Of a stretch of DNA of 64,000 nt, positions 7,029-34,053 are shown piece after piece. The stretch comes from an uncultured virus (IMG/VR IMGVR_UViG_3300005460_000001) (Duplodnaviria; Heunggongvirae; Uroviricota; Caudoviricetes), in IMG/VR virus record IMGVR_UViG_3300005460_000001, positions 1-64,000 of that record; one strand, 5' to 3'. Every line of letters starts with the position of its first letter. Position 1 is the stretch's first letter. The translations under genes were made by a program, and so were the position numbers. A model generated the notes under the pieces. The model made no database searches and was not told the origin of the DNA. It saw only the letters and a list, made by a program, of their open reading frames with translations.

Positions 7029-7569
7029 TTATAGGATTCTCAAATATGTTTCGCATAATGGGTCCTATACGGAATTGGCAAAAGGAACAATTGATTACAA
7101 TTATTTTGAAACGGAAGATGTTACTACCGAAAGACAAATTCTCGATGGTGTGGGCATCATGATAAGAGACTTATCGGGGATTAATCTTGAGGAAAGTCCG
7201 GGTAATTATATATTAGAGTTATCAGATAATGATAATAATAGCATGCATATTATGCTGCTAATCAAACCGGGATTTATAGGACGTAGGCTGATCAAGCCAA
7301 GCAAAATTCTCGATAGTATCAGCCACAATGATATTCTTATTAATATGATTCTTGGCCAACCTATTAGTAAAGAATTTGTGAATAAATGCAATGTGTTAGA
7401 GGCTACACGGGGCACTAATAGGTATCTAAAATATAAGAGGCTCTTTATGGAAAACGAATTAGGTGAGTATATATGGAAGAATACCACAGAAAACAAGATA
7501 GCAAAAAGTGTTCTTGAAAAATATACCACTACTGCATTAGAGGAGCTATATGAAGACTTACAGAATTAA
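7015..7569 (+). CDS. hypothetical protein
   Basis: 184-aa ORF, AAGGAGG RBS. Confidence 0.8.
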   Translation: MLIDNYRILKYVSHNGSYTELAKGTIDYNYFETEDVTTERQILDGVGIMIRDLSGINLEESPGNYILELSDNDNNSMHIMLLIKPGFIGRRLIKPSKILDSISHNDILINMILGQPISKEFVNKCNVLEATRGTNRYLKYKRLFMENELGEYIWKNTTENKIAKSVLEKYTTTALEELYEDLQN

Positions 7570-14204: not shown

Positions 14205-16571
14205 ATGCCTAAAGAATTAACTGAAGAACAAATTCAAGCCATACAAAACTATGGAGATGAATTAATAACTATTGAAAACTTCGTTAAAGTAGTGCAAAAA
14301 CGTCCTGGTATGTATCTTGGGTCTATTGGTAATAGTGGATTTATGGATATGGTGAGAGAGGTTTTTGATAACGGATATGATGAACTTAATAGAATTAAAT
14401 CTCCATGCGATTGTGTGATTGTTTCTATAGATGAAAGAAATTATACTATTATAGTTGAAGATAACGGAAGAGGTATACCATTCGGTGAGATGATAAGAGT
14501 ATTTACCGAGCAGCATACCTCATCAAATTTCGAGAAAGAAAGAAATAGCGGAGATTATTCTTCTGGTCTACATGGAGTAGGAGCAAAGGTAACAAATGCT
14601 ATGTCTACAAAGTTTATTGTAGAATCATATAATGTGATATTAGGAGAAGGCCGTTTAGTAGAATTTAACAACGGAATCCCATGGGATAAGGGAGAGGTAA
14701 AAATTCCTAATAAAGAAGGGAAGCAGGGGACTAAGGTTACCTTCACTCCAAACGTTGATTTACTTGGAGAAATTACTGTATCATGGGTTGACATATTAAA
14801 TATGATTCGAGACCATATGCCATTATCTAAAATAGGCTCTAAAGCTGTTGTAAATGCTATAGACATAAATGGTAAATCTCATAGAGAAGTCATTGTTAAC
14901 GAAGATGGTATATTGGAGTTACTTATCAATATGACCAGTACTCCTCTCGTTTATCCTGTGAAATTGTTTAAAGACACAGGTGAAATGAAAATGGATATAG
15001 TATTCACTTATAGCATTGAAGAGGAGTCGGATGCTAATGTGGTTTCTTTTGCCAATATGTGTCCTACCATATCTGGATACCATATAGATGGATTTTTAGA
15101 TGGAATATCTAAGTTCTTTTGTGACTATATGAATAAGATTTACCTTTCTAATGGGCCAGATAAAAAGAAGAAAAAGAAAAAAGAGATAAGAGTAACTCCT
15201 ACTGATGTAAAAGTAGGGTTAAAGGCTGTGGTAAACGTAGCCCATATTGAACCAATTTTTAACGGTCAAGCTAAAAAGATTTTTGCATCCGAAGATATGT
15301 ATCCATTTATGAAAGCAGAAATCCAAACTCAGTTAGAAGAGTGGGCAAAGTCTAACCCCAAAGATTTCAGTAAAATTTGTAAATATCTTAAAGATATTGC
15401 TGAACTAAGAATGAAGCAAGATAAGGAAAAGGTTAATCTTAATAAAAAATATAATTCTAATGCCCTTACTGGGCTTCCTAGTAAGTATGTTGCCCCATTA
15501 GATAAGAAGGGGGATTTAGAATTATGGATTACTGAAGGGGATTCCGCTGGAGGGACTTTAGAAAACAATCGAGATAATCACACTCAAGGATATTTCCCAA
15601 TACGTGGTAAATTGCCTAATGCATTCTTTACTCAAAAAGATAAGTTTCTTAGTAATGCTGAGGTTGCTGGAATTATCAATATTATCGGTGGAGGATATGG
15701 GCGTTCATTTGATATAACAAAAGTAAAATTTTTAAAGATTGTTATAAACAGTGATGCAGATGCAGATGGAGATCATATCTGTTGTTTATTATTGTCATTC
15801 TTTATATTGTATATGCCTGGTTTGGTAGAGTCTGGAAGGGTATATCGTGCTGTTCCACCATTATACGGAATTACAATAAAGTCTAAGAATATATACTTCA
15901 CTCGAAAGATAGACTACATTAAATATGTACAAAAGCTATTCATAAAGGATAACGATATTAAGTACGGAGATGGAAAAACTATATCCCAAACTGACCTTAC
16001 AAAGTTATTATACTCGAATATAGATTATGTATACGAGATAGAAAGGATATCAAATCGATATGCAGTTTCCCCAGAGTTACTTGAAACAGTTCTGATGTTG
16101 CATTTAGCTAAGGCCGATTACAACAAGATGAAGAGAGATATAGAGAAAAAATATAGATTTCTTAAAATAACTAATCAGAACGGCGTGCCAATGATTACCG
16201 GTTCCTTAGATTTAGCTATTCAGACATTATTCGTGACTGATGTGTTAATAAAGGATTGCTCAAGGATTATAAATATTCTTGTAAGCAATGCTAATGTGTC
16301 CTTTATGGTTAACAATAACAAAGTATTGTTGTATGGATTAATGAAAGGATTTGATGAATCTAGTCCTAAAAATTTAAGAAGGTTTAAAGGACTTGGAGAG
16401 ATGGATGGTCCATCATTATACGAATCTACAGTTAATAAGAATACGCGTACGCTCATTCAGTTTACCACAGAAAATATTAAAGATACCATTGAGAGCATCA
16501 GGTACTACGAGAATAATAAAGATAAGCTTCTTGAGGGTATAACAGTATCTAGATTTGATGTAATAGGATAA
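14205..16571 (+). CDS. gyrB: type IIA topoisomerase (gyrase) subunit B
   Basis: RPGMYLG, EVFDN, DNGRGIP and GLHGVG (GHKL ATPase); TEGDSAG, PIRGK and DADADGDHI (TOPRIM); RFKGLGEM. Confidence 0.95.
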   Translation: MPKELTEEQIQAIQNYGDELITIENFVKVVQKRPGMYLGSIGNSGFMDMVREVFDNGYDELNRIKSPCDCVIVSIDERNYTIIVEDNGRGIPFGEMIRVFTEQHTSSNFEKERNSGDYSSGLHGVGAKVTNAMSTKFIVESYNVILGEGRLVEFNNGIPWDKGEVKIPNKEGKQGTKVTFTPNVDLLGEITVSWVDILNMIRDHMPLSKIGSKAVVNAIDINGKSHREVIVNEDGILELLINMTSTPLVYPVKLFKDTGEMKMDIVFTYSIEEESDANVVSFANMCPTISGYHIDGFLDGISKFFCDYMNKIYLSNGPDKKKKKKKEIRVTPTDVKVGLKAVVNVAHIEPIFNGQAKKIFASEDMYPFMKAEIQTQLEEWAKSNPKDFSKICKYLKDIAELRMKQDKEKVNLNKKYNSNALTGLPSKYVAPLDKKGDLELWITEGDSAGGTLENNRDNHTQGYFPIRGKLPNAFFTQKDKFLSNAEVAGIINIIGGGYGRSFDITKVKFLKIVINSDADADGDHICCLLLSFFILYMPGLVESGRVYRAVPPLYGITIKSKNIYFTRKIDYIKYVQKLFIKDNDIKYGDGKTISQTDLTKLLYSNIDYVYEIERISNRYAVSPELLETVLMLHLAKADYNKMKRDIEKKYRFLKITNQNGVPMITGSLDLAIQTLFVTDVLIKDCSRIINILVSNANVSFMVNNNKVLLYGLMKGFDESSPKNLRRFKGLGEMDGPSLYESTVNKNTRTLIQFTTENIKDTIESIRYYENNKDKLLEGITVSRFDVIG

Positions 16572-16591
16572 AGTTAATTATTCTAAAGATC

Positions 16592-16687
16592 AAATTTAAT
16601 CTCATATCTTAAAATAATCTAAATTAAAATATAATAATCTTATACGTTGAATGAATCTAGATAATAAAATCTTAATCTAAATCTATG
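16592..16687 (+). repeat. orphan, partly degenerate TIGR-like dual-repeat array (~2.5 units)
   Basis: AATCT ends at 16602, 16620, 16640, 16658 and 16678 (18/20/18/20 spacing); same repeats as the array at 18622. Confidence 0.7.
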
Positions 16688-16696
16688 ATTGTAGCG

Positions 16697-16735
16697 GGCT
16701 AGGAGAATATTCTCCTAGCCTATATTTTATTTTTT
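16697..16735 (+). terminator. intrinsic terminator after gyrB and its array
   Basis: GGCTAGGAGAATATTCTCCTAGCC palindrome followed by a T tract. Confidence 0.75.
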
Positions 16736-16827
16736 GTGAAATTGCTTATTTTTGACCATATAATATTTAAGTGAATAAGAAATTCTATATTCAATAAAAA
16801 TATTAAAATCTAAGGAGGAAACCAAAA

Positions 16828-16962
16828 ATGAAAGAAACAAAAGAAAGAAAAACAAGAAATGCAGAAGAAGAAGTTAGACAAGCAATTTTGCTGGGGGCTA
16901 TGATTTTAAACTCGGCGTCTAACGTAAAAACCTATGTTCCTGCGGTAAAGTTGGCTAAGTAA
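16828..16962 (+). CDS. small hypothetical protein (44 aa, not in the ORF track)
   Basis: AAGGAGG RBS; MKETKERKTRNAEEEVRQAILLGAMILNSASNVKTYVPAVKLAK*. Confidence 0.6.
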   Translation: MKETKERKTRNAEEEVRQAILLGAMILNSASNVKTYVPAVKLAK

Positions 16963-17029
16963 ATTAAAAACTAAATAAAGAAAAAGACATTTAAAACATA
17001 ATAAGACTAAATAAATGGAGGATTAAAAA

Positions 17030-17425
17030 ATGAAAAATGCTGTAGCAAGAATGAATCTCGTAGCAAATATCGGAACCAATTTCGGAGAGAAGAATGCTTC
17101 TCTGGTTAGGCAGATGATTAACCGTATGCAGCCGCACTTGTATGATAGATTACCGTGTGTGTATGAAGATTCGTATTATGTGTATTGTCAGAAACGATTC
17201 TTAAACAAAGTAGCCGGCAGAGGAGTAAAGATGCTGGTTGTCTATGTTGATGATATTGATTGCTTGGTATATGAAGCATTCAAAATTACAAAGAAGCTCT
17301 GCGACAGATTCAATATCAAATTGGTGGCATTTAAATGGAATGAGAAGTTGAATAGCTTTGAGAGATTCAATACTATGATAGAAGATCTTGAAACTATAAA
17401 GAGATCGAATTATAAGGTAAATTAA
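17030..17425 (+). CDS. hypothetical protein upstream of the Tas-like gene
   Basis: 131-aa ORF, GGAGG RBS. Confidence 0.8.
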   Translation: MKNAVARMNLVANIGTNFGEKNASLVRQMINRMQPHLYDRLPCVYEDSYYVYCQKRFLNKVAGRGVKMLVVYVDDIDCLVYEAFKITKKLCDRFNIKLVAFKWNEKLNSFERFNTMIEDLETIKRSNYKVN

Positions 17426-17501
17426 CAATAATGAATCTCAGGGGCTCAATCAATGAATTTGAGCCTCTTAACTTTATTTTATACAGAAAGGTTATAAAAA
17501 G

Positions 17502-18617
17502 ATGAAAAAAAATTTAAATGAAATACACGAAGTAGGAACTGCTGAATATGAGGCTACTGGATTAGCGAAGATTTCTAAATCTGTAAAGGAGTCTATGGTT
17601 TATATTACTAAAGAGCAAATTAAAGCTATGGTTGACAGGGTTTACCAAGCTCAGCACGACAGGATTGAGTTGGAAGCGCAGCTTAAGGCGATTAACCAGG
17701 GAAGAGATAAAGATTCTGATACTGTAAAGAAAGCCGAAAAGAAGAATACTATAACTGCTATGGAATGGCTCTGTCAAGATGCTGCAAACAGAGAAGCGCA
17801 GATTAAGGAAATGCTTAACGAGTATTGTAAAAGCGAGCCAGTTTGCGTTTGGGCTATGCAGATAAAAGGTATTGGGCCCGTAATAGCTTCATACCTGTGG
17901 GCACATTTAGACTTGAACAAATGCAACAGTGTCGGAGCTTTTCACTCTTATGCTGGTTTAAACGATAATAATAACCCATGGTTAGGTGTAGAAAAGGCCA
18001 CAACTCTTGTTAAAGAGGTTTATGAGGAGTTGGGATATGACAAGAAGCATGAAGCAGATGAGCGCGTGTTAGCTGCAGTTTCGGAGAAGACCACTCGTCG
18101 TCCGAACATCATATCGAATGGCATTAATGTAGCTAAAAAGTCCAACAAGAAAAAGAAACTAACGGATATGGAGGCACTGATTAAATATCTTTCTAAGCCA
18201 CCATATAATGAAGATCTGAAGACAATGTGTTGCTTTAAGATCCCTCGATTGTCGTTTGCGATGAATTGCAATCGCGGTTCTTTATATGGGGAATTATATA
18301 AAGAAAGAAAGGCATATGAAGAACGTAAAAACAAGAATTTAGAATATGCTGATCAGGCGGCTGCTGTTTTGAAGAGAAGAAAAAAATATCTCAAAAAGAA
18401 GGAAATAAAAACCCTAGAGTCTGGAATGTTGTTGGATTCACATATCACCACTCGGGCGTTAAGGAGATCAGTAAAAATCTTCTTATCTCATTTTTGGGAA
18501 TGCGCTTATCGATATGAGCACAAGTCTAATAACAGAGCTCCATTATATGTCATGGACATTGCAAAGCATAAAGACTATATAGAACCTGAAGTTCCATTCC
18601 CGGATTTTAGCAAGTAA
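17502..18617 (+). CDS. Nop/IS110(Transposase_20)-domain RNA-binding protein, TIGR-associated TasA-like (no RuvC/HNH)
   Basis: N-terminal coiled coil; WAMQIKGIGPVIASYL..LD...SVGAFHSYAGL, PYNEDLKT, YGELYKERKAYE and HITTRALRRSVKIFLSHFW; no DEDD RuvC domain; dual-repeat array starts 5 nt after the stop. Confidence 0.85.
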   Translation: MKKNLNEIHEVGTAEYEATGLAKISKSVKESMVYITKEQIKAMVDRVYQAQHDRIELEAQLKAINQGRDKDSDTVKKAEKKNTITAMEWLCQDAANREAQIKEMLNEYCKSEPVCVWAMQIKGIGPVIASYLWAHLDLNKCNSVGAFHSYAGLNDNNNPWLGVEKATTLVKEVYEELGYDKKHEADERVLAAVSEKTTRRPNIISNGINVAKKSNKKKKLTDMEALIKYLSKPPYNEDLKTMCCFKIPRLSFAMNCNRGSLYGELYKERKAYEERKNKNLEYADQAAAVLKRRKKYLKKKEIKTLESGMLLDSHITTRALRRSVKIFLSHFWECAYRYEHKSNNRAPLYVMDIAKHKDYIEPEVPFPDFSK

Positions 18618-18621
18618 CCGT

Positions 18622-18811
18622 ATTGAATCTATGTTTCAGAATTATAATCTTCGCGGGAAAATGAATCTTAGGTTCTATATAGTAATCTGTTTTCGCGTAT
18701 GAATCTGCGGCATTAAATTTTAATCTTGTTGGCAGAATGAATCTTATGTATGATATAGTAATCTGTTCTCGTGTATGAATCTGCGGCATTAAATTTTAAT
18801 CTTGTTGGCAA
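18622..18811 (+). repeat. TIGR-like dual-repeat guide-RNA array, 5 units of 38 nt
   Basis: alternating nATGAATCT (9 nt) and nATWDTAATCT (11 nt) repeats separated by variable 9-nt spacers (10 nt if n is counted as spacer). Confidence 0.88.
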
Positions 18812-18820
18812 AAGGTTTAA

Positions 18821-18869
18821 ATAAATATAGGCTGAGAATAATAAATTTCTCAGCCTATATTTATTTTTT
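18821..18869 (+). terminator. intrinsic terminator closing the tas-array transcript
   Basis: AAATATAGGCTGAGAA...TTCTCAGCCTATATTT followed by ATTTTTT. Confidence 0.75.
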
Positions 18870-18916
18870 GTATTATATATTATATTTATGATTATCTATG
18901 AAAGGAGGAGGTTATA

Positions 18917-19303
18917 GTGTACAATGGAGACGTTTGGTATATGATACCTGGATTTAATGGATATGAGATAAACGAGGACAAAGTAGTAAGGTCTATGAAA
19001 AGATTTAACGCAGTACCAGGATATCTTATTAAGTTATATAAAGGAGGTTATTATGAACTCTCTGATAACCATTGTAAAAGGGTTAGAAAAACTCCTGATG
19101 AACTGTGGGATTTAGTTCAGGAGCAAATAAAAAATTCTAAAGCACAGGTTCGTGTACGCGAAGATTATCATAATCACATAAGTAGTAGAAACAAATTTAA
19201 AAATTTTTATCCTGAATCTATAGAAGAAGACAAATCATCTCCAGGCTTGAAAAGGGGGTCCGATGATAGATTTTATATGGATTTTTCAGGATTAATGAAT
19301 TAG
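18917..19303 (+). CDS. NUMOD4-like domain protein (no intact HNH)
   Basis: DVWYMIPGFNGYEINEDKVVRS matches the NUMOD4 pattern; GTG start after AAGGAGGAGG. Confidence 0.6.
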   Translation: MYNGDVWYMIPGFNGYEINEDKVVRSMKRFNAVPGYLIKLYKGGYYELSDNHCKRVRKTPDELWDLVQEQIKNSKAQVRVREDYHNHISSRNKFKNFYPESIEEDKSSPGLKRGSDDRFYMDFSGLMN

Positions 19304-19314
19304 GAGGATGGAAA

Positions 19315-19622
19315 GTGAAAAAGGAATTCGTAGAAAGAAAGGTTTACAATAATGTGATACCTGTAAAATTGGTTTCATCGTCAGTACCCATTTTGCTATA
19401 ATGATTATATAAATAGGATAGAGAGGGCGCGAAATACAAAAAGTCTTCTTGATAATTATTTAAAATCATTAGGATTGTGTTATAAACAAAACAGGAAATG
19501 AGTATATTATCCATGATGATGGAAAATTATATTGTGATTATTATAAAAACACCAAAATAGAGGATTATGAATATGAAATTGGCAAAATATACGATTTGGC
19601 ATCGGCAATAACTATACATTAA
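19315..19622 (+). pseudogene. probable frameshifted gene remnant
   Basis: AGGAGG plus GTG start followed by three short successive open frames that fill the gap before gyrA. Confidence 0.35.
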
Positions 19623-19645
19623 TTTTATAAAGGAGATGTAGATAA

Positions 19646-22036
19646 ATGCCAGAAACGATAATACAACAAGATGCTGCTGTATCACATAAGAATAGTATGG
19701 GGAACTATGCCATTGAAGTTAACCTTAGAAGATCAACTCCAGATGCAAAGGATGGATTGAAATTAGTTCATAGGCGTATATTGGACGTCATGTTTAATGA
19801 TGAACCTTGTGCTGAGAAGTTAGTAAAAACGTCTGCAGTTGTAGGTACTACGATGAAAAAGTCCCATCCGCACGGAGATGCTTCTATAGGAGATGCTATT
19901 AAACCGATGGTAAACTGGTGGGAGATAGGAATACCGTTAATAGATACAAGGTCGAACTATGGTAATTTCCACGGTAAAGGAGCAGCAGCACCTCGATATA
20001 CAGAGATAAAATTATCACAATTCTGTTTGGATTGTGTAATTGGGGATTTAAGAAAATCCAAAAATATTGTAGATTGGGTAGATACTTTTGACTATAGGGA
20101 TAAAGAGCCAGAATATTTTCCGGTAAAAGTCCCGTTGCTATTAATAAATGGAACATTTGGTATTGGGGTTGGTATTAAAACTGAGATTCCTAAGCATCCT
20201 ATTAATGAAGTCATAGATGCAACTCTTAGAGTTATAGAAGACCCGTCTGCCCCAGTGGTGTTGGTTCCCGACACTTGTATGCCATGTGAAATAGTAGAAG
20301 CGAATTGGAAAAAGATTTGCAACACTGGACATGGAAAGTATAAAGTAAGAGGTATTATTGATATTGAACAGAATAAAGATGGTTCATATTCACTGATAAT
20401 AAAGTCAGTCCCAGATAGAGTATATTTCGATAGAGGGAATGCTGAGAATGGTGGCGTTAAATATGTCATACTTAAAATGGTAGAAGAGAAGAAACTTCCT
20501 CAAATAATGAGTATTGACATAGATTCCAAAGGAACAGATATGAGAATAATCATCCGTCTAAGAAAAGGAGCGGACCCCAATTTTGTGAGGGATATGATTT
20601 ATAAAAACACTCAGATGGAAAGCCCATATAGTGTTAACTTTGAAACTCTAGATGGAATCAAACCCCTCAGGATGTCATATAAATCTTATATTGAGTTCTT
20701 TATAGAACAAGCAAAGACGAACAAGTTTAGACTATACGCCAATAAGCTTCAAAAGGCAAATACTCGATATCATAAGATAACCTCTTATATAGAGATATTA
20801 AAATCAGATAAGCTTCAGGAAATGCTCAAAGTAATGCAGACAATGAAGGAAATAAACGATAAAGCATTGATGGAAAAATTAATTAAGAAATTCGGCATTA
20901 GCGATATTCAAGCAGAGTTTTTAATTAATTCAACTTATAAGACTTCGTCAATAGCATATCGTTTATCATATGAGAAAGAGGCAAAAGCATTAGAAGAGGA
21001 TATTAAGCATTTCATTGATATGATTACTATTGATGAATTGATTATTCAAGAGATAGTAGATGAGCTCAAATATTTTAAGAAGAAATATGGACAGCCTAGA
21101 CGAAGTAAAGTTATAAAGATTAAAGACCTATCTCATATACCAGAAGGGCAATTTAATATCGTCATAACCGAAGCCGGGTTCGTCAGAAAATTATCTCCTT
21201 TTGATGCTGTTAATAACATTAAAGGAGATGCTCCTAAGCATGTTATGACTGTAGAGAATACAGAGAATATATTGTTGTTTACAGCATCTGGTAAGGTATT
21301 TAATGTTCCAATACACAAGATTCCGGTAACGGAAAAAAGTGGAGTAGGAACTGACTTAAGATTACTAGTAAAAGGATTAGTCAGTGATATAGTGGAAATC
21401 ATGTATCTTCCCATGGTGAAAGAACGTGCTAATGATGCTAAGAATAAATACTTTATAATGACTCTTACCGAAGGTAATTGTATAAAGAAAATGGATTTAG
21501 ATGATTTTCTTAATGTGCCGCCATCTGGAATCTTATTCACAAAGATTAATTCTGGTGATAGAGTTATTGATGTAAAAATCGTGTCTAAGGATTCTGATAT
21601 AATAGTATGGTCAGATAGGAAGGCTTTACGTATGAAAGCTGAATCTGTTCCTCACTTCAGAAGAAATACTTTAGGCGTTGGCGCTATGAGTGGTAAAGAT
21701 CATATTGATGGATTTACTGAAGTTCGTAAAGATATTACTGATGTCTTAGTAATAACTAATTCTGGAAGGGTTAATCGATTTGATATTATAGGGTTGCCGT
21801 TATCAGATAGATATAAAGCCGGCTCCAATGTGGTTAAACTAGGAAAAACTGATAGTATACATTCTATACTATGCTGTAATTCAAATGATATGGTACTAGT
21901 CACTTCTAAAGTTGGAGACACAGAATATCCCGTGAGTTCTATAAAGACGGGCTCTAGTATATCTGCTGGAGAAAAAGTAATACCTCTGAAAAATGATGTA
22001 ATATTAAAAACAAAAATTCTCAGTAACCCGAACTAA
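19646..22036 (+). CDS. gyrA: type IIA topoisomerase (gyrase) subunit A
   Basis: DGLKLVHRR, HPHGD, GNFHG..AAAPRYTE (catalytic Tyr) and LLINGTFGIGVG; C-terminal beta-pinwheel repeats. Confidence 0.95.
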   Translation: MPETIIQQDAAVSHKNSMGNYAIEVNLRRSTPDAKDGLKLVHRRILDVMFNDEPCAEKLVKTSAVVGTTMKKSHPHGDASIGDAIKPMVNWWEIGIPLIDTRSNYGNFHGKGAAAPRYTEIKLSQFCLDCVIGDLRKSKNIVDWVDTFDYRDKEPEYFPVKVPLLLINGTFGIGVGIKTEIPKHPINEVIDATLRVIEDPSAPVVLVPDTCMPCEIVEANWKKICNTGHGKYKVRGIIDIEQNKDGSYSLIIKSVPDRVYFDRGNAENGGVKYVILKMVEEKKLPQIMSIDIDSKGTDMRIIIRLRKGADPNFVRDMIYKNTQMESPYSVNFETLDGIKPLRMSYKSYIEFFIEQAKTNKFRLYANKLQKANTRYHKITSYIEILKSDKLQEMLKVMQTMKEINDKALMEKLIKKFGISDIQAEFLINSTYKTSSIAYRLSYEKEAKALEEDIKHFIDMITIDELIIQEIVDELKYFKKKYGQPRRSKVIKIKDLSHIPEGQFNIVITEAGFVRKLSPFDAVNNIKGDAPKHVMTVENTENILLFTASGKVFNVPIHKIPVTEKSGVGTDLRLLVKGLVSDIVEIMYLPMVKERANDAKNKYFIMTLTEGNCIKKMDLDDFLNVPPSGILFTKINSGDRVIDVKIVSKDSDIIVWSDRKALRMKAESVPHFRRNTLGVGAMSGKDHIDGFTEVRKDITDVLVITNSGRVNRFDIIGLPLSDRYKAGSNVVKLGKTDSIHSILCCNSNDMVLVTSKVGDTEYPVSSIKTGSSISAGEKVIPLKNDVILKTKILSNPN

Positions 22037-28392: not shown

Positions 28393-28464
28393 TGGGCATT
28401 CGCCAAGAGGTAAGGCACGGGACTTTGACTCCTGAATTCGTTGGTTCGAATCCAATATGCCCAG
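28393..28464 (+). tRNA. tRNA-Gln(TTG)
   Basis: acceptor TGGGCAT/ATGCCCA, anticodon arm CGGGA-CTTTGAC-TCCTG, GGTTCGAATCC T arm; CCA not encoded. Confidence 0.9.
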
Positions 28465-28837: not shown

Positions 28838-28912
28838 GGGCCATTAGCTCAGCTTGGTTAGAGCAACCGGCTCATAACCGGTCGGTCATAGGTTCGAGTC
28901 CTATATGGCCCA
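28838..28912 (+). tRNA. tRNA with CAT anticodon, probably tRNA-Ile2 (lysidine type)
   Basis: GGGCCAT/ATGGCCC acceptor, ACCGG-CTCATAA-CCGGT anticodon arm, GGTTCGAGTCC; body resembles Firmicute tRNA-Ile2. Confidence 0.88.
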
Positions 28913-30313: not shown

Positions 30314-30423
30314 GTACATATGGGTATGGGAGGGATTCCATACCCATAAAATTTTCTGATAGTAACACATTAAGAAATGTGTAACTATAAATCAATAACA
30401 CAATAAAATGGAGGTATAAAAGA

Positions 30424-31662
30424 ATGAATGTAAAATGTATTGGTATTGGAGCCGCAGGAAATAAGGCGGCAATTACTCTGGTGGAAAAGAAAGTACTGGC
30501 ACAGGATAATGTATTATTAATCAATTCTACATTAAAGGATATCCCTGCAGATTACAAGGGGCTGGCTGTGGAATATGTTAATTCTTATGGCGGCTGCGGG
30601 AAAGAAAGAAAAAATGCGTATGATCTTGCAGTAAACTCCATTAAGGCTGGAAAGATCCCGCTGGATGATTTTCTCAATATTGGAAAAAGCAATGAGGCGG
30701 AGCTGGTAATCATTGTAACTTCAACTGAAGGCGGTACAGGTTCTGGTTCATCAATTATTATTGGTAAGTATATTAAGAGCCATTACGACATCGATGTGCA
30801 TATGTTCGGATTTGTTGGGTTCAAGACCGACCCAAGGGGTCTGAAGAATACAGTAGAGTGGTTTTCGGAGCTGCAGGAAGATTTTGCGGTGGAAGCTGTT
30901 GAGAACAGCAAGTACTTACCAGAATGCCGTGGAAACAAGATCAAAGCAGAGAAGATGGCGAACGAAGACTTTGCTAACAAGATTGGCATTCTGATCGGAA
31001 ATACAATCAGATATTCAGAGCACAATATCGACCCGACTGATCTTCTTAAAGTGTCTGCAAAGCAGACTGGATTTATGGTAATTGAATCTGCGAATTTTGA
31101 GAAGATCAAAAACAAAGAACAGTTCGAGGCGATGGTTGTCCGTATGATTGACGATAGCAAATCAGTTGATGTGAGCAATGTTAATGCTAAGAAATCTGCG
31201 GTGTTCCTGAATATTAGTCCGGCTTCTACTGATTTTATCTCTTATGAAGAAATCATTACCGAGAGGTATGGGGAGAGATATGAGAATTACGAGCATATTC
31301 AGCACGAAGCTGATATGCCAGAGTTCTTTGCGATTATCATTGCTGGTATGAAAATGCCGGTAGAAGAAATCCAAAGAGTATATACCGAATATAAAGACCG
31401 CATGGGGCAGGTTGACCGTTCAGGAGACGACTTCTTTGCATCTGTAAGTGCATTGTCGTTCGATGATGATGATGATCTGTCGATCCATGGCAAAAAGAAA
31501 AAGACTATGAGCGACGATGAGTTCTTTGCGAATCTCGATAAACCAGTTGATTCTCCGTCTGCTTCAACAAAAGTCGTGCGGCCATCTGCTGAAGGGAGTG
31601 AGTCCAGTGGGAAATTCTCTAATGTAAGAGTAGAGAAAGCAGACATCGCAAAAGAATATTAG
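30424..31662 (+). CDS. tubulin/FtsZ-family GTPase (PhuZ/TubZ-like)
   Basis: IGIGAAGNKA, LLINST, GGCGK and the GGTGSG tubulin signature, NIDPTD; acidic disordered tail. Confidence 0.9.
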   Translation: MNVKCIGIGAAGNKAAITLVEKKVLAQDNVLLINSTLKDIPADYKGLAVEYVNSYGGCGKERKNAYDLAVNSIKAGKIPLDDFLNIGKSNEAELVIIVTSTEGGTGSGSSIIIGKYIKSHYDIDVHMFGFVGFKTDPRGLKNTVEWFSELQEDFAVEAVENSKYLPECRGNKIKAEKMANEDFANKIGILIGNTIRYSEHNIDPTDLLKVSAKQTGFMVIESANFEKIKNKEQFEAMVVRMIDDSKSVDVSNVNAKKSAVFLNISPASTDFISYEEIITERYGERYENYEHIQHEADMPEFFAIIIAGMKMPVEEIQRVYTEYKDRMGQVDRSGDDFFASVSALSFDDDDDLSIHGKKKKTMSDDEFFANLDKPVDSPSASTKVVRPSAEGSESSGKFSNVRVEKADIAKEY

Positions 31663-31670
31663 GAGGAATT

Positions 31671-32534
31671 ATGTTTGATAATTATCAATATAGTGAAGGA
31701 GGGACCCCAGAGGTTCCTCTTTCATTTTCTTACAACAGTATTGAAGAAGTCATTAATATGCTAAGGCATGTTGATGACTATAGTGACCGGGACCTATATG
31801 AACTAGTTAAGAAAACCTATTCTATGATCCTGGACGAGATTTTCACTATTAAAAACGTAGACCTAATCAGGATGCTGTATAACACTCCAAAGTTTATAAC
31901 AGCATTAACTGCAGTATTAGGAGAAGTAGAATTAAACCAGATTCAATTTATTTGGTGTAACAAATTAACATATGACTATTTCACATCGACTGCTGAAAAG
32001 AACTTATATGTTAAGGCTTTGCTTTTGCAGCTAAGTTCTACAGTTAATAGAAGATACACTCCAGGTTTAATCGGACTGGGCTTAAACGAAAATCTAGTAA
32101 GTTATCTAGTAAACGCAAGATTCTCAACCGAGAAAGAGGATATTCAAGTAAAAAGATTAAATCTCATATTAATGAATCAAAGCCCAGACATAATGACACT
32201 ACAGATGATTGTAGACATTTATGGTAAGCTCTTTGATAGGATAACTCCTCTGTTTTCGGGGATTATGTATGATTATTGGGAACCGGAGTCTTTAATGAAT
32301 GATAGCATAGCGGAAGTTTATGCTACTATTACTATGGCTATAATAACTATCGTAAACAATCTTCCGCAAGATTTATGCTTGCAGTTATTAAAGAGCTTTG
32401 CGGAATCTCATTGCATAGTAAATATTGGAAAGTCTGTTAGGTTTAATATATATGCAATTGTCGAAGAGGATTTTCCGAGATTATATTTATGCTTAAAAAT
32501 ATTAAAGGCAAACAATATTGTGCTGCCGTCATAA
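31671..32534 (+). CDS. hypothetical protein in operon with tubulin
   Basis: 287-aa ORF, AGGAGG RBS. Confidence 0.8.
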   Translation: MFDNYQYSEGGTPEVPLSFSYNSIEEVINMLRHVDDYSDRDLYELVKKTYSMILDEIFTIKNVDLIRMLYNTPKFITALTAVLGEVELNQIQFIWCNKLTYDYFTSTAEKNLYVKALLLQLSSTVNRRYTPGLIGLGLNENLVSYLVNARFSTEKEDIQVKRLNLILMNQSPDIMTLQMIVDIYGKLFDRITPLFSGIMYDYWEPESLMNDSIAEVYATITMAIITIVNNLPQDLCLQLLKSFAESHCIVNIGKSVRFNIYAIVEEDFPRLYLCLKILKANNIVLPS

Positions 32535-32541
32535 TAAGTAT

Positions 32542-32731
32542 AACTAATCTTAATGAGAAAATTATAATCTGATGGAGCAAATGAATCTATATAGTGGGAT
32601 TTTAATCTAGTGTCATGCATGAATCTACCCTTCAAAATTATAATCTAGGCAGAAAGATGAATCTAACCATGATAATTTTAATCTGAAACTCCAAATGGAT
32701 CTCAACATCAGAATTTTAATCCGGATTGTTA
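32542..32731 (+). repeat. orphan TIGR-like dual-repeat array, 5 units of 38 nt
   Basis: nATGAATCT and nATTWTAATCT repeats in exact 18/20 alternation with 10 unique spacers. Confidence 0.88.
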
Positions 32732-32738
32732 AATGGTT

Positions 32739-32775
32739 ACCAGAGTACCTAAATGGGTACTCTGGTTTATTTTTT
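32739..32775 (+). terminator. intrinsic terminator after the orphan array
   Basis: ACCAGAGTACC-taaatg-GGTACTCTGGT followed by TTATTTTTT. Confidence 0.75.
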
Positions 32776-32817
32776 ATCATCTCCGAAACATTTTAATAAA
32801 ATGAAAGGAGAGATAAG

Positions 32818-34053
32818 ATGTATTCATTATTAGACGGATTTAGAGAGAGGACTTTGAAGTCTAAGGATAGCCGAATGTCGCAAGAGACAGTGCCTGACGT
32901 AGCGTATTCTACTGGATTTCTTGGATTTGATTTTATGAATGGTACCGTTGTACATGTAAAAACACCAGAGAAAAAATTTGCATATAATTCAATAGGAATA
33001 GTAGATGGCTCTATTACAATGGTAATCGGGAGATCTGGTTGTGGTAAGACCACATGGGTTGTTCAGTCTGCTGGATATATTATGAAACAATTCCCAGGAG
33101 CACAAACCTGGCATGATGACATCGAGGGAGGTATTGTAGAAACTAGAAGAGAGAGACTTGTTGGATTATTCGGTAATAGTATGAAAGATAGATACCTATC
33201 CAGAAACTCAGGAGTTACTGCAGAGAGTGTGTATGAACGTATAAAGATTATTCATGACCTTAAAATGGAAAATAGAGAAGATTACGAATATGATACTGGA
33301 TACTATACATCTGGCGGAGAAAAGATTATTAAACTTCAACCGAGTGTCTATATTCTCGATTCTTTAGCAATGCTTACTCCAGACAAATATACAGAGGAAG
33401 AAGAATTATCTGGGCAAATGTCATCCACAGCAGCAGCAAAAACAAATGCCAGTGTATTTAAAAGAATTGTTCCACTTCTTAAAAGTGCAAATATCATGCT
33501 ATTTGTAATCAATCATATCACTGATGCTATAAAGATTAGTATGTTTGATTCAAAGCCTGCGCAATTGTCTTATCTTAAGCAGGGTGAATCTTTACCAGGA
33601 GGGAAAACTCCAGTTTACTTATCGAATCTTTTAATTAGATTTGATGATAATACTAAGCTTAAAGAATCAGAAGGTTTAAAGATAAGTGGTAGTATAGTAG
33701 ACATATCATTACTTAAATCTAGAACTTCAAATGTTGGGAAATCAGTTCCTCTTATATTTGACTTTAAAAATGGATTTGATAGAGATTTATCTTTGTTACA
33801 GCTTCTCAAAGATATGAAGAAAGTCAATGGGGCTGGAGCTTATCTTTACTTTGGGGATAGAAGCGATAAGAAATTCTCCCAGAAACAATTTAAAGAGAAA
33901 CTCATTGAAGATGATGAATTTAGAGCAGTATTCATGGAAACAGCTCTTGAATCTCTTAAAGATCTTCTTTACGACCCAGGGGAGATGCCAGATGTGGGAT
34001 CCAACGTGATAGATATCACTGGTAGAATATTAGATATGATGAAAGTAGCGTAA
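32818..34053 (+). CDS. recA: RecA/UvsX-like recombinase
   Basis: YSTGFLGFD, GRSGCGKT, DIEGG, ILDSLA, VINHI and PGGK motifs. Confidence 0.85.
   Translation: MYSLLDGFRERTLKSKDSRMSQETVPDVAYSTGFLGFDFMNGTVVHVKTPEKKFAYNSIGIVDGSITMVIGRSGCGKTTWVVQSAGYIMKQFPGAQTWHDDIEGGIVETRRERLVGLFGNSMKDRYLSRNSGVTAESVYERIKIIHDLKMENREDYEYDTGYYTSGGEKIIKLQPSVYILDSLAMLTPDKYTEEEELSGQMSSTAAAKTNASVFKRIVPLLKSANIMLFVINHITDAIKISMFDSKPAQLSYLKQGESLPGGKTPVYLSNLLIRFDDNTKLKESEGLKISGSIVDISLLKSRTSNVGKSVPLIFDFKNGFDRDLSLLQLLKDMKKVNGAGAYLYFGDRSDKKFSQKQFKEKLIEDDEFRAVFMETALESLKDLLYDPGEMPDVGSNVIDITGRILDMMKVA

What the first reader, a model, noticed from the sequence alone, without database searches (positions are those of the whole stretch)
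32542..32775. Orphan 5-unit array with the same dual repeats, 14 kb away behind the tubulin operon
Seen: aactaatct-TAATGAGAA-aattataatct-GATGGAGCA-aatgaatct-ATATAGTGG-gattttaatct-AGTGTCATG-catgaatct-ACCCTTCAA-aattataatct-AGGCAGAAA-gatgaatct-AACCATGAT-aattttaatct-GAAACTCCA-aatggatct-CAACATCAG-aattttaatcc-GGATTGTTA. It has an exact 38-nt period and ten unique spacers, none shared with the tas-linked array. It sits between a stop codon (32534) and a terminator with no tas gene nearby. Inference: guide arrays are dispersed into the 3' UTRs of core operons and load in trans onto the single Tas protein. That would tie different guide sets to different transcription programmes and imply a way for arrays to spread.
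Basis: partly seen in the sequence, partly recalled or inferred. Interest (0 to 1): 0.85.

Follow-up and report, generated by a model that had tools for sequence, protein, structure and literature searches.

The report
Distant guide-RNA array of phage TIGR-Tas
A large gut phage carries a genuine array of short dual guide RNAs (a TIGR array) 14 kb away from the single protein gene that should use it, tucked between the stop codon and the terminator of an unrelated operon, which shows that such guide arrays can be scattered through a genome and missed by searches that look only next to the protein gene.

Summary
Window 32542-32736 holds five 38-nt units of two alternating repeats (edge ATGAATCT, loop ATTNTAATCT) and ten unique 9-10-nt spacers. 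It starts 8 nt after a stop codon and ends in a truncated edge repeat plus a hairpin terminator. This is the published dual-repeat TIGR architecture.

The tas product folds like solved TasH and TasR, has no nuclease domain (TasA type), and keeps the Tyr/His pair that cuts pre-tigRNA in TasH.

The most likely mechanism is inferred, not shown. The array is transcribed as the 3' tail of the tubulin operon, then cut and loaded in trans by TasA, which binds unknown DNA targets.

Support comes from relatives:
- Relatives without tas lack the array at the same locus.
- A 99%-complete relative with one tas has arrays 26 and 43 kb from it.
- Another phage fragment has two arrays of the same repeats and no tas.
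- Strain variants keep the repeats while the spacers change by point mutation.

Open points: expression, targets, and the unexamined 101 kb of this phage. Published searches looked within 5-10 kb of tas. I rate it a new variant of a known kind.

The parts
32542..32736 (+). Distal TIGR dual-repeat array (arr2). It has five units of edge repeat (A)ATGAATCT, spacer A, loop repeat (A)ATT(A/T)TAATCT and spacer B. The first edge is degenerate (AACTAATCT, 32542-32550) and the final edge is truncated (AATGG, 32732-32736).
   Evidence: It matches the published definition of dual-repeat TIGR arrays (PMC12045711, passages).
32739..32776 (+). Intrinsic-terminator-like hairpin (12 pairs, 6 G-C, loop 4) with a T-run, directly after the truncated edge repeat.
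30424..31662 (+). Tubulin/PhuZ-like gene, the first gene of the unit that ends in arr2. A terminator-like hairpin at 30319-30348 precedes it.
   Evidence: Pfam PF00091 E 1.3e-5, below cut-off. PHROG 4733 'tubulin PhuZ' E 2.7e-5. Terminator.
31671..32534 (+). 287-aa ORF with no family match. Its stop codon lies 8 nt before the array.
   Evidence: Homologues sit at the same place in relatives L046, L056 and L080.
32818..34053 (+). UvsX-like recombinase gene, the next gene downstream of the array.
   Evidence: PHROG 97 E 1.3e-36.
17502..18617 (+). tas gene, encoding a 371-aa TasA-type (nuclease-less) Nop-domain protein. Y349 and H356 align with the pre-tigRNA processing residues of TasH.
   Evidence: PDB sequence hits to 9mty_A (TasR, E 1e-8) and TasH (E 1e-5). 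Model pLDDT 86. The ten best Foldseek matches are all TasH or TasR. Conservation. Y289/H296 of SpTasH from PMC13421893.
18623..18815 (+). tas-linked TIGR array (arr1) with five units and the same repeats. Units 2-3 and 4-5 are a 76-nt duplication.
18819..18866 (+). Terminator-like hairpin after arr1.
16592..16691 (+). Third, short array (arr0, about 2.5 units). It lies 20 nt after the stop of the topoisomerase II large-subunit gene (14205-16571) and ends in ATTG.
16696..16721 (+). Terminator-like hairpin after arr0.

Best explanation
The interval is a bona fide dual-repeat TIGR array that lies 13.9 kb from its effector gene.

Shown by sequence:
- Five 38-nt units with the same edge and loop repeats as the array beside tas.
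- Both repeat types begin with (A)AT and end with AATCT.
- A truncated final edge repeat followed by an intrinsic terminator.
- No terminator between the upstream operon and the array.
- A TasA-type Tas protein in the same genome that keeps the Tyr/His processing pair.

Inferred:
- The array is transcribed as the 3' tail of the tubulin/287-aa-ORF messenger, or from a promoter inside that ORF.
- TasA dimers bind each unit through the shared repeat ends and cut inside the edge repeats. This releases five roughly 38-nt tigRNAs, each with two 9-10-nt spacers.
- Each TasA-tigRNA complex binds a DNA site in which the two spacers pair with opposite strands. Because TasA has no nuclease, the outcome is binding or repression rather than cleavage.
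- The targets are not in the 129 kb of this phage that could be searched, so they are presumably in the host or in competing mobile elements.
- Arrays seem to grow by tandem duplication of units followed by point mutation of the spacers, while the repeats are held constant.
For: Architecture and statistics:
- (the longest chance chain was 3 or fewer in 300 of 300 simulations, against 8 and 10 observed).
- The features match the published definition: two alternating 8-12-nt repeats, roughly 9-nt spacers, 5-15 units, a 3'-truncated edge followed by a terminator, and edge and loop sharing their end motifs (PMC12045711).
- Terminators follow all three arrays.

Tas identity:
-.
- Y349 and H356 align with SpTasH Y289 and H296 (alignment, residues from PMC13421893). 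H356 is invariant and Y349 is at least 90% conserved among 37 homologues.
- Only one tas is found in the record.

Co-occurrence with tas:
- The synteny tubulin, (p287), UvsX, RNA polymerase beta is kept in relatives.
- 34 of 34 loci with 39-61% UvsX identity show no array upstream of UvsX. In the 4 junctions I read, the stop codon is followed directly by a terminator.
- 0 of 4 such records hold tas, and 3 of them are at least 90% complete. The positive control found tas in 3 of 3 records.

Generality:
- G002 (99% complete, one tas at 201,171-202,559) has arrays at about 158,380-158,720 and 175,040-175,470.
- G014 has a 14-unit array and a second array 30 kb away, both with the same repeats as here, and no tas in 55 kb. 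The overlapping G015 has none in 62 kb.

Selection on repeats:
- Within arr1's duplication there are 7 differences in 36 spacer positions and 0 in 40 repeat positions (Fisher p 0.004).
- Strain X6 restores both deviant repeats of arr2 to consensus and carries 7 spacer substitutions.
- The array is present in 3 of the 3 laid runs whose contigs cover it.

Function of the family: TasA acts as an RNA-guided repressor in the preprint 10.64898/2026.09.09.750476 (section 12).
Against: - There is no expression or processing evidence of any kind.
- No target was found. With 18-nt sites in either strand arrangement, gaps of 0-2 and up to 2 mismatches, the 129-kb record gave one hit, which equals the control count. 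In 1.1 Mb of related phage DNA there were 0 hits with up to 1 mismatch and no excess over controls.
- In the diverged half of the array, spacers differ between strains at 7 of 45 positions, about the rate of third codon positions next door (27 of 171 codons). This shows no constraint on spacer sequence and would also fit an inert array.
- The contrast between repeats and spacers in arr2 alone is not significant (2 of 40 against 7 of 45, p 0.16).
- Two repeats in this strain are off consensus.
- About 101 kb of the phage (the left part of L057's contig) could not be searched for a second tas.
- Distal arrays are not universal. In G003 and G004 (periodicity scan) and in G005-G009 (exact pattern only), arrays were found only within about 3.5 kb of tas.
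Confidence: 0.72

Rival explanations
1. Relic array. This would be a once-functional TIGR array carried along in a 3' untranslated region. It may still be transcribed, but its guides no longer have targets and it does nothing for the phage.
For: - Spacers drift between strains at about the synonymous rate (7 of 45 positions against 27 of 171 third codon positions).
- Two terminal repeats are off consensus in this strain.
- No target was found.
- The array is absent from the same locus in all 34 more distant relatives.
Against: - The 38-nt phase is perfect over all ten anchors.
- Strain X6 has all-consensus repeats.
- The truncated edge and the terminator are intact.
- The array is kept in 3 of 3 runs whose contigs cover it.
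- Repeats are clearly conserved relative to spacers in the sister array (0 of 40 against 7 of 36).
- The same dispersed layout recurs in G002 and G014.
- The natural targets of nearly all TIGR spacers are unknown, so a missing target is the rule (10.64898/2026.09.09.750476, section 13).
Confidence: 0.15
2. The array serves a different Tas protein encoded in the part of the phage genome that is not in the record.
For: The record is about half of the genome (CheckV 52%; 231-kb contig L057). The other 101 kb could not be searched.
Against: - The edge and loop repeats of arr2 are the same as those of the array that abuts the tas gene seen here. That protein is therefore a sufficient partner.
- The 99%-complete relative G002 has one tas and still has distal arrays.
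Confidence: 0.05
3. A DNA-level element rather than an RNA. The repeats would be iterons or a centromere-like site for the neighbouring tubulin segregation system, or binding sites for another protein.
For: The array lies directly behind the tubulin operon. Its AATCT motifs recur about every two helical turns.
Against: - The same repeats follow tas and a topoisomerase gene. In G014 they lie beside an RNA-polymerase gene and behind an unrelated ORF.
- All copies are on the coding strand and end in a truncated repeat plus a terminator.
- The architecture equals that of RNAs shown to be processed and bound by Tas (PMC12045711).
- Relatives with the same tubulin operon have no such repeats.
Confidence: 0.03

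Closest known systems
Dual-repeat TIGR arrays of TIGR-Tas systems (Faure et al. 2025, PMC12045711)
   Same: - Two alternating short repeats and two roughly 9-nt spacers per unit.
- Five units.
- Edge and loop repeats share their end motifs.
- The array ends in a truncated edge repeat plus a rho-independent terminator.
- The array is phage-borne, and a Tas Nop-domain protein is encoded in the same genome.
   Different: - The unit is 38 nt, not 36 nt.
- The repeat ends are AT...AATCT, not UG...CCA.
- The array lies 13.9 kb from tas inside another operon's 3' tail. Published arrays were sought and described upstream or downstream of tas, within 5 kb (section 24) or up to 10 kb (preprint 10.64898/2026.09.09.750476, section 23).
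TasA, the nuclease-less Tas shown to act as an RNA-guided transcriptional repressor (preprint 10.64898/2026.09.09.750476, section 12)
   Same: - A solo Nop-domain protein with a coiled coil and no HNH or RuvC domain.
- It is expected to bind DNA but not cut it.
   Different: - The tested MbTasA uses stem-loop tigRNAs and lacks the Tyr/His loop.
- The protein here is of the dual-repeat kind and keeps that pair.
- No assay was done on it.
Orphan or distal CRISPR arrays that are served in trans by cas genes elsewhere (recalled from general knowledge, not from a call)
   Same: Guide arrays share repeats with a cas-linked array, lie far from the effector genes, and are used in trans.
   Different: The system is unrelated, with no leader or adaptation module. 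Here the array is embedded between a stop codon and a terminator of a protein-coding operon.
3'-UTR-derived bacterial small RNAs and polycistronic or host-gene-embedded box C/D snoRNAs (recalled; snoRNA clusters are mentioned in PMC12045711, section 10)
   Same: Small guide or regulatory RNAs are cut out of a longer transcript that also serves another purpose. tigRNAs are structurally related to box C/D guides.
   Different: Those RNAs guide RNA modification or act by RNA pairing. These are expected to guide a DNA-binding protein. Release from the messenger's tail is inferred here, not shown.

Membership tests
Dual-repeat TIGR array | Two distinct alternating repeats of 8-12 nt | tested here: met
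   The edge repeat is ATGAATCT (8-9 nt) and the loop repeat is ATT(A/T)TAATCT (10-11 nt). They alternate through ten anchors.
Dual-repeat TIGR array | Variable spacers of about 9 nt (up to 12), two per unit | tested here: met
   There are ten different 9-10-nt spacers.
Dual-repeat TIGR array | Edge and loop repeats share start and end motifs (box D-like and box C-like), as needed to bind a symmetric dimer | tested here: met
   Both repeat types start with (A)AT and end with AATCT. Naming these ends box D and box C is by analogy with PMC12045711, not tested.
Dual-repeat TIGR array | [quoted passage not shown] | tested here: met
   AATGG at 32732-32736 is followed by a hairpin at 32739-32766 and a T-run. 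arr0, arr1 and the second array of G014 end the same way.
Dual-repeat TIGR array | Located upstream or downstream of a tas gene | tested here: not met
   tas ends 13.9 kb upstream, with about ten genes between them. tas is in the same genome, and a second array with the same repeats abuts it.
Dual-repeat TIGR array | Transcribed, processed into roughly 36-nt tigRNAs and bound by Tas | not testable with these tools
   No RNA run holding the locus was listed.
Tas protein, TasA type | Nop-type RNA-binding domain related to solved Tas structures | tested here: met
   phmmer gave E 1e-8 to 9mty_A (TasR) and 1e-5 to TasH. Foldseek ranks 1-10 are all TasH or TasR at probability 1.00, followed by IS621.
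Tas protein, TasA type | No HNH or RuvC nuclease domain | tested here: met
   Only about 36 poorly predicted residues precede the first long helix. No nuclease family was found in Pfam.
Tas protein, TasA type | C-terminal Tyr/His pair that processes pre-tigRNA in dual-repeat systems | tested here: met
   Y349 and H356 align with SpTasH Y289 and H296. H356 is invariant and Y349 is at least 90% conserved in 37 sequences. Activity was not tested.
Tas protein, TasA type | Dimer through a central coiled coil | not tested
   Long helices at 37-67 and 86-110 are predicted. No complex was modelled.

The most novel reading that the evidence does not exclude
Scattered TIGR arrays may be a regular trait of a clade of Tas-encoding large gut phages. 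Arrays would be planted between the stop codon and the terminator of replication, segregation and transcription operons.

The host messenger would then be a substrate of TasA's own Tyr/His RNase. Guide output would follow each operon's expression. Cutting at the first edge repeat would remove the messenger's terminator hairpin, which would let TasA feed back on those operons.

The same layout could supply guides to the published Tas branch for which no array was found near tas. New guides would arise by duplication of units and point mutation rather than by acquisition.
Probability: 0.3. Interest if true: 0.75.

Novelty: new variant of a known kind. Interest (0 to 1): 0.6.

Why it matters
TIGR-Tas was described in 2025, and its biology is still open: natural targets, how arrays arise, and why some Tas genes seem to lack arrays.

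Both surveys that I could read looked only near tas. One used 5 kb on each side. Arrays like this one are therefore invisible to them.

Three independent cases show that whole-genome scans for the repeat pair are needed to list a phage's guides:
- this phage;
- a 99%-complete relative with one tas;
- a fragment with two arrays and no tas.

The 3'-tail position gives a testable link between guide production and specific operons. The duplication with spacer-only divergence in the sister array, and the point-mutated spacers between strains, give a concrete hypothesis for how TIGR arrays grow without an adaptation machine.

Tried and rejected
- **Chance.** Rejected by the simulations.
- **Known RNA family.** An Rfam gathering scan of the window found only two tRNAs.
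- **Self-targeting.** I derived the site arrangement myself from the 8-nt 3' overhang and the 'C-5 rule' in PMC12045711. I tested spacer A followed by the reverse complement of spacer B, and also the opposite arrangement. There was no excess over same-strand and reversed controls in the 129-kb record or in 1.1 Mb of related phage DNA.
- **Target searches in the large public collections.** Not run, because an 18-mer is expected by chance tens of times in 596 billion bases.
- **RNA evidence.** No RNA holder was listed. Run X18, labelled metatranscriptomic but probably DNA, has a 12%-diverged contig that stops at 32541 and no contig over the array. I draw nothing from that.
- **Other periodic stretches in the record.** The lag-36 stretches at 104.5, 105.3 and 129.2 kb are collagen-like Gly-X-Y coding repeats, not arrays.
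- **Close relatives in the phage GenBank collection.** None were found; the only match is a 90-nt RNA-polymerase stretch of Bacillus phage AR9.
- **G001.** It is 100% identical to the window and gives no comparison.
- **Sigma-70-like promoters.** They are not above the shuffle expectation near any array.
- **Host.** The only Tas relatives in prokaryote assemblies are a 2.3-kb 'uncultured Firmicutes' contig and a 246-kb contig binned as Izemoplasmatales. I name no host from that.
- **The 231-kb contig behind L057.** It could not be searched.
- **Earlier notes of this scan.** None were found.

Full report
**1. What is in the sequence**

Ten anchors [A/G]ATC[T/C] follow each other at alternating distances of 20 and 18 nt, which gives an exact 38-nt period.

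Two repeats alternate:
- a short one, (A)ATGAATCT;
- a longer one, (A)ATT(A/T)TAATCT.

They are separated by ten different spacers of 9-10 nt. The first short repeat is degenerate (AACTAATCT) and starts 8 nt after the stop codon of ORF 31671-32534. After the tenth spacer comes AATGG, the first half of the short repeat. Then comes a 12-bp hairpin with six G-C pairs and a T-run at 32739-32776.

Chance does not explain this:
- In 300 first-order Markov simulations of the 129,475-bp record, the longest chain of AATCT with this spacing was 3 or fewer. The observed chains are 8 here and 10 in the tas-linked array.
All 8 matches lie in three arrays.

**2. There are three arrays, not two**

Besides the array right after the tas ORF (18623-18815, five units), a short array of about 2.5 units lies at 16592-16691. 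It starts 20 nt after the stop of a topoisomerase II large-subunit gene.

All three arrays share these properties:
- They are on the + strand.
- They start just after a stop codon.
- They end in a truncated short repeat (ATTG, AAGG, AATGG).
- Each is followed by a different hairpin terminator.

A periodicity scan of the whole record found no further arrays. The other periodic stretches are collagen-like coding repeats.

**3. What kind of thing it is**

The layout equals the published definition of dual-repeat TIGR arrays. [quoted passage not shown] Here both repeats start with (A)AT and end with AATCT.

The 371-aa ORF at 17502-18617 is a Tas protein:
- phmmer against PDB sequences gives E 1e-8 to 9mty_A and 1e-5 to TasH.
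- A model built from 37 homologues has mean pLDDT 86.
- The ten best Foldseek matches to that model are all TasH or TasR complexes at probability 1.00, followed by the IS621 recombinase.
- Only about 36 residues precede the first long helix and no nuclease family is detected, so it is of the TasA type.
- In the HMMER alignment, Y349 and H356 fall on Y289 and H296 of Salicola-phage TasH. PMC13421893 names these as the catalytic residues for metal-independent pre-tigRNA processing (passages).
- H356 is invariant and Y349 is at least 90% conserved among the 37 homologues.

**4. Surroundings**

tas and two of the arrays sit between the two topoisomerase II subunit genes (14205-16571 and 19646-22036). 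These two genes are adjacent in G002 and in the tas-less G011, so the tas cassette looks like an insertion.

The distal array closes a unit that begins after a terminator at 30319-30348. That unit holds a weakly tubulin/PhuZ-like gene and a 287-aa ORF of no known family. A UvsX-like recombinase and an RNA-polymerase beta-like gene follow. No terminator lies between the 287-aa ORF and the array. Sigma-70-like promoter matches are not above the shuffle expectation.

**5. Relatives**

IMG/VR holds one fragment that is 100% identical to the window and therefore uninformative.

*Relatives found through the UvsX-like protein (39-61% identity).* These keep the order tubulin, (287-aa ORF), UvsX, RNA polymerase.
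- None of these 34 loci has an array upstream of UvsX.
- In the four junctions I read, the stop codon is followed directly by a hairpin terminator.
- Four of their records, three at least 90% complete, contain no tas (0 of 4). The same profile found tas in 3 of 3 positive controls.
- The array is therefore present only where tas is present.

*Phages whose Tas is about 41% identical.* These have period-35/36 dual-repeat arrays around tas.
- In G003 and G004 (periodicity scan of the whole records) and in G005-G009 (exact pattern only), arrays lie within about 3.5 kb of tas.
- In G002 (99% complete, one tas at 201,171-202,559) two further arrays lie 26 and 43 kb away. One starts right after an ORF and one ends in a terminator.

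*Other contigs with this phage's own repeats.* A 24-base pattern of these repeats, scanned over all viral contigs, found two overlapping fragments besides the identical fragment. These are G014 (55 kb) and G015 (62 kb).
- They carry a 14-unit array with the same edge and loop repeats. It has its own AT-rich upstream region and a terminator.
- G014 has a second array 30 kb further on, again between a stop codon and a terminator.
- Neither fragment has a tas gene (0 of 2).

**6. Strain variation**

Twenty public runs from 15 studies, mostly labelled mouse gut, hold the 2-kb stretch or a part of it. I laid the contigs of four of these runs on 31700-33700.
- X4 is identical across the array.
- X5 shows one listed substitution (32648) and a one-base insertion at low depth.
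- X18 has no contig over the array.
- X6 spans the stretch in one 67-kb contig with 50 differences.

The X6 differences are distributed as follows:
- One in the upstream ORF and none in the first half of the array.
- Nine between 32648 and 32726.
- 29 listed in the first 171 codons of the downstream gene, 27 of them at third codon positions.

Of the nine differences in the array, seven are in spacers (7 of 45 spacer positions in that half). The other two turn the deviant repeats GGATCT and AATCC into the consensus GAATCT and AATCT.

So the array persists with the same units. Its spacers change by point mutation at about the synonymous rate, and no unit is gained or lost. The contrast between repeats and spacers is not significant in this array alone (p 0.16). 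Only 40 of the 105 difference rows were printed, so these counts are minima.

The sister array gives a cleaner signal. Its units 2-3 and 4-5 are a 76-nt duplication with 7 differences, all in spacers (7 of 36 against 0 of 40 repeat positions, p 0.004).

**7. Targets**

From the 8-nt 3' overhangs and the 'C-5 rule' in PMC12045711, I inferred that a site reads spacer A, then 0-2 bp, then the reverse complement of spacer B. I also tested the opposite arrangement.
- With 12 tigRNAs against the 129-kb record, no hit with up to 2 mismatches exceeded the controls.
- With 25 tigRNAs against 1.1 Mb of related phage DNA, there was no hit with up to 1 mismatch and no excess over controls.
- The host is unknown.

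**8. Mechanism**

The most likely course is as follows. The array is transcribed with, or from within, the tubulin operon. TasA dimers recognise the shared repeat ends and cut in the edge repeats with Y349/H356. The resulting five roughly 38-nt dual-spacer guides direct nuclease-free DNA binding at unknown targets.

| Status | Points |
|---|---|
| Shown | The architecture, the identity of the repeats with the tas-linked array, the fold of the protein and its conserved residues, and the co-occurrence of array and tas |
| Inferred | Transcription, processing, trans loading, and the outcome at the target |

The rivals are a relic array, a second unseen tas, and a DNA-level iteron or centromere. 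Their evidence is listed in the Rival explanations section.

**9. Novelty**

TIGR-Tas itself is known. In the text I could read, arrays are described upstream of tas, downstream of it, flanking it or inside it, and were sought within 5 kb (PMC12045711, section 24) or up to 10 kb (preprint, section 23).
- 'Orphan', 'distal' and 'jumbo' do not occur in the Science paper.
- 'Multiple arrays', 'distant' and 'in trans' do not occur in the preprint.
- Library searches for 'TIGR array' with 'orphan' gave one unrelated paper.
- 'tigRNA' with 'jumbo phage' gave none.
- A four-term search gave ten papers, of which I saw only the listing.

I could not see supplementary tables, the TIGRFinder methods or the TIGRSafari resource, any of which might list such arrays. 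For the preprint 10.64898/2026.08.11.744272 I saw only the abstract and outline.

The preprint's discussion notes a Tas branch with no detectable array and asks whether it has another guide source. Distal arrays are one candidate answer. I rate this a new variant of a known kind, of moderate to good interest.

Noticed in passing
window 18660-18811: Units 2-3 and 4-5 of the tas-linked array are a 76-nt tandem duplication. It has 7 differences, all in spacers (7 of 36 spacer positions against 0 of 40 repeat positions). This hints that TIGR arrays grow by duplication followed by spacer mutation.
   Followed up: yes
window 16592-16691: A third, short array (about 2.5 units) with the same repeats lies in the 3' tail of the topoisomerase II large-subunit gene.
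   Followed up: yes
window 17430-17470: A solitary AATGAATCT (edge-repeat sequence) sits just before a hairpin and T-run downstream of ORF 17030-17425, right upstream of tas. It may be a remnant of an array or chance, since four such 8-mers occur outside the arrays on this strand.
   Followed up: partly
window 14205-22036: tas, two arrays and three small ORFs fill a 3.1-kb gap between the two topoisomerase II subunit genes. These genes are only about 0.5-0.8 kb apart in G002 and in the tas-less G011, so the tas cassette looks inserted.
   Followed up: partly
window 28393-28464 and 28838-28912: Two tRNA genes were found by Rfam.
   Followed up: no
G000 104560-105590 and 129220-129425 (outside the window): Collagen-like Gly-X-Y coding repeats lie on the - strand. 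The record ends in a run of C, which is probably an assembly artefact.
   Followed up: no
L086 (G012:C1:11880-11965): One TIGR-like unit (ATGAATCT, 10 nt, ATTATAATCT, 9-10 nt, GAGAATCT) lies inside a long - strand ORF of a 99%-complete relative that has no tas. It may be chance, a remnant or a decoy.
   Followed up: partly
L050-L052, L058-L061, L063 around 7370-7535; L079 2862-3030: A lag-33 periodic stretch lies about 3.3 kb downstream of the UvsX start in several relatives. I did not look at it.
   Followed up: no
L088: A 246-kb contig binned as an Izemoplasmatales genome encodes a Tas homologue (38% identity) near its end. By its size it may be a large phage placed in a bacterial bin.
   Followed up: no
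L083 3300-3345: The 14-unit array of G014 is interrupted after nine units by about 45 nt that break the phase. It then resumes for five units.
   Followed up: no
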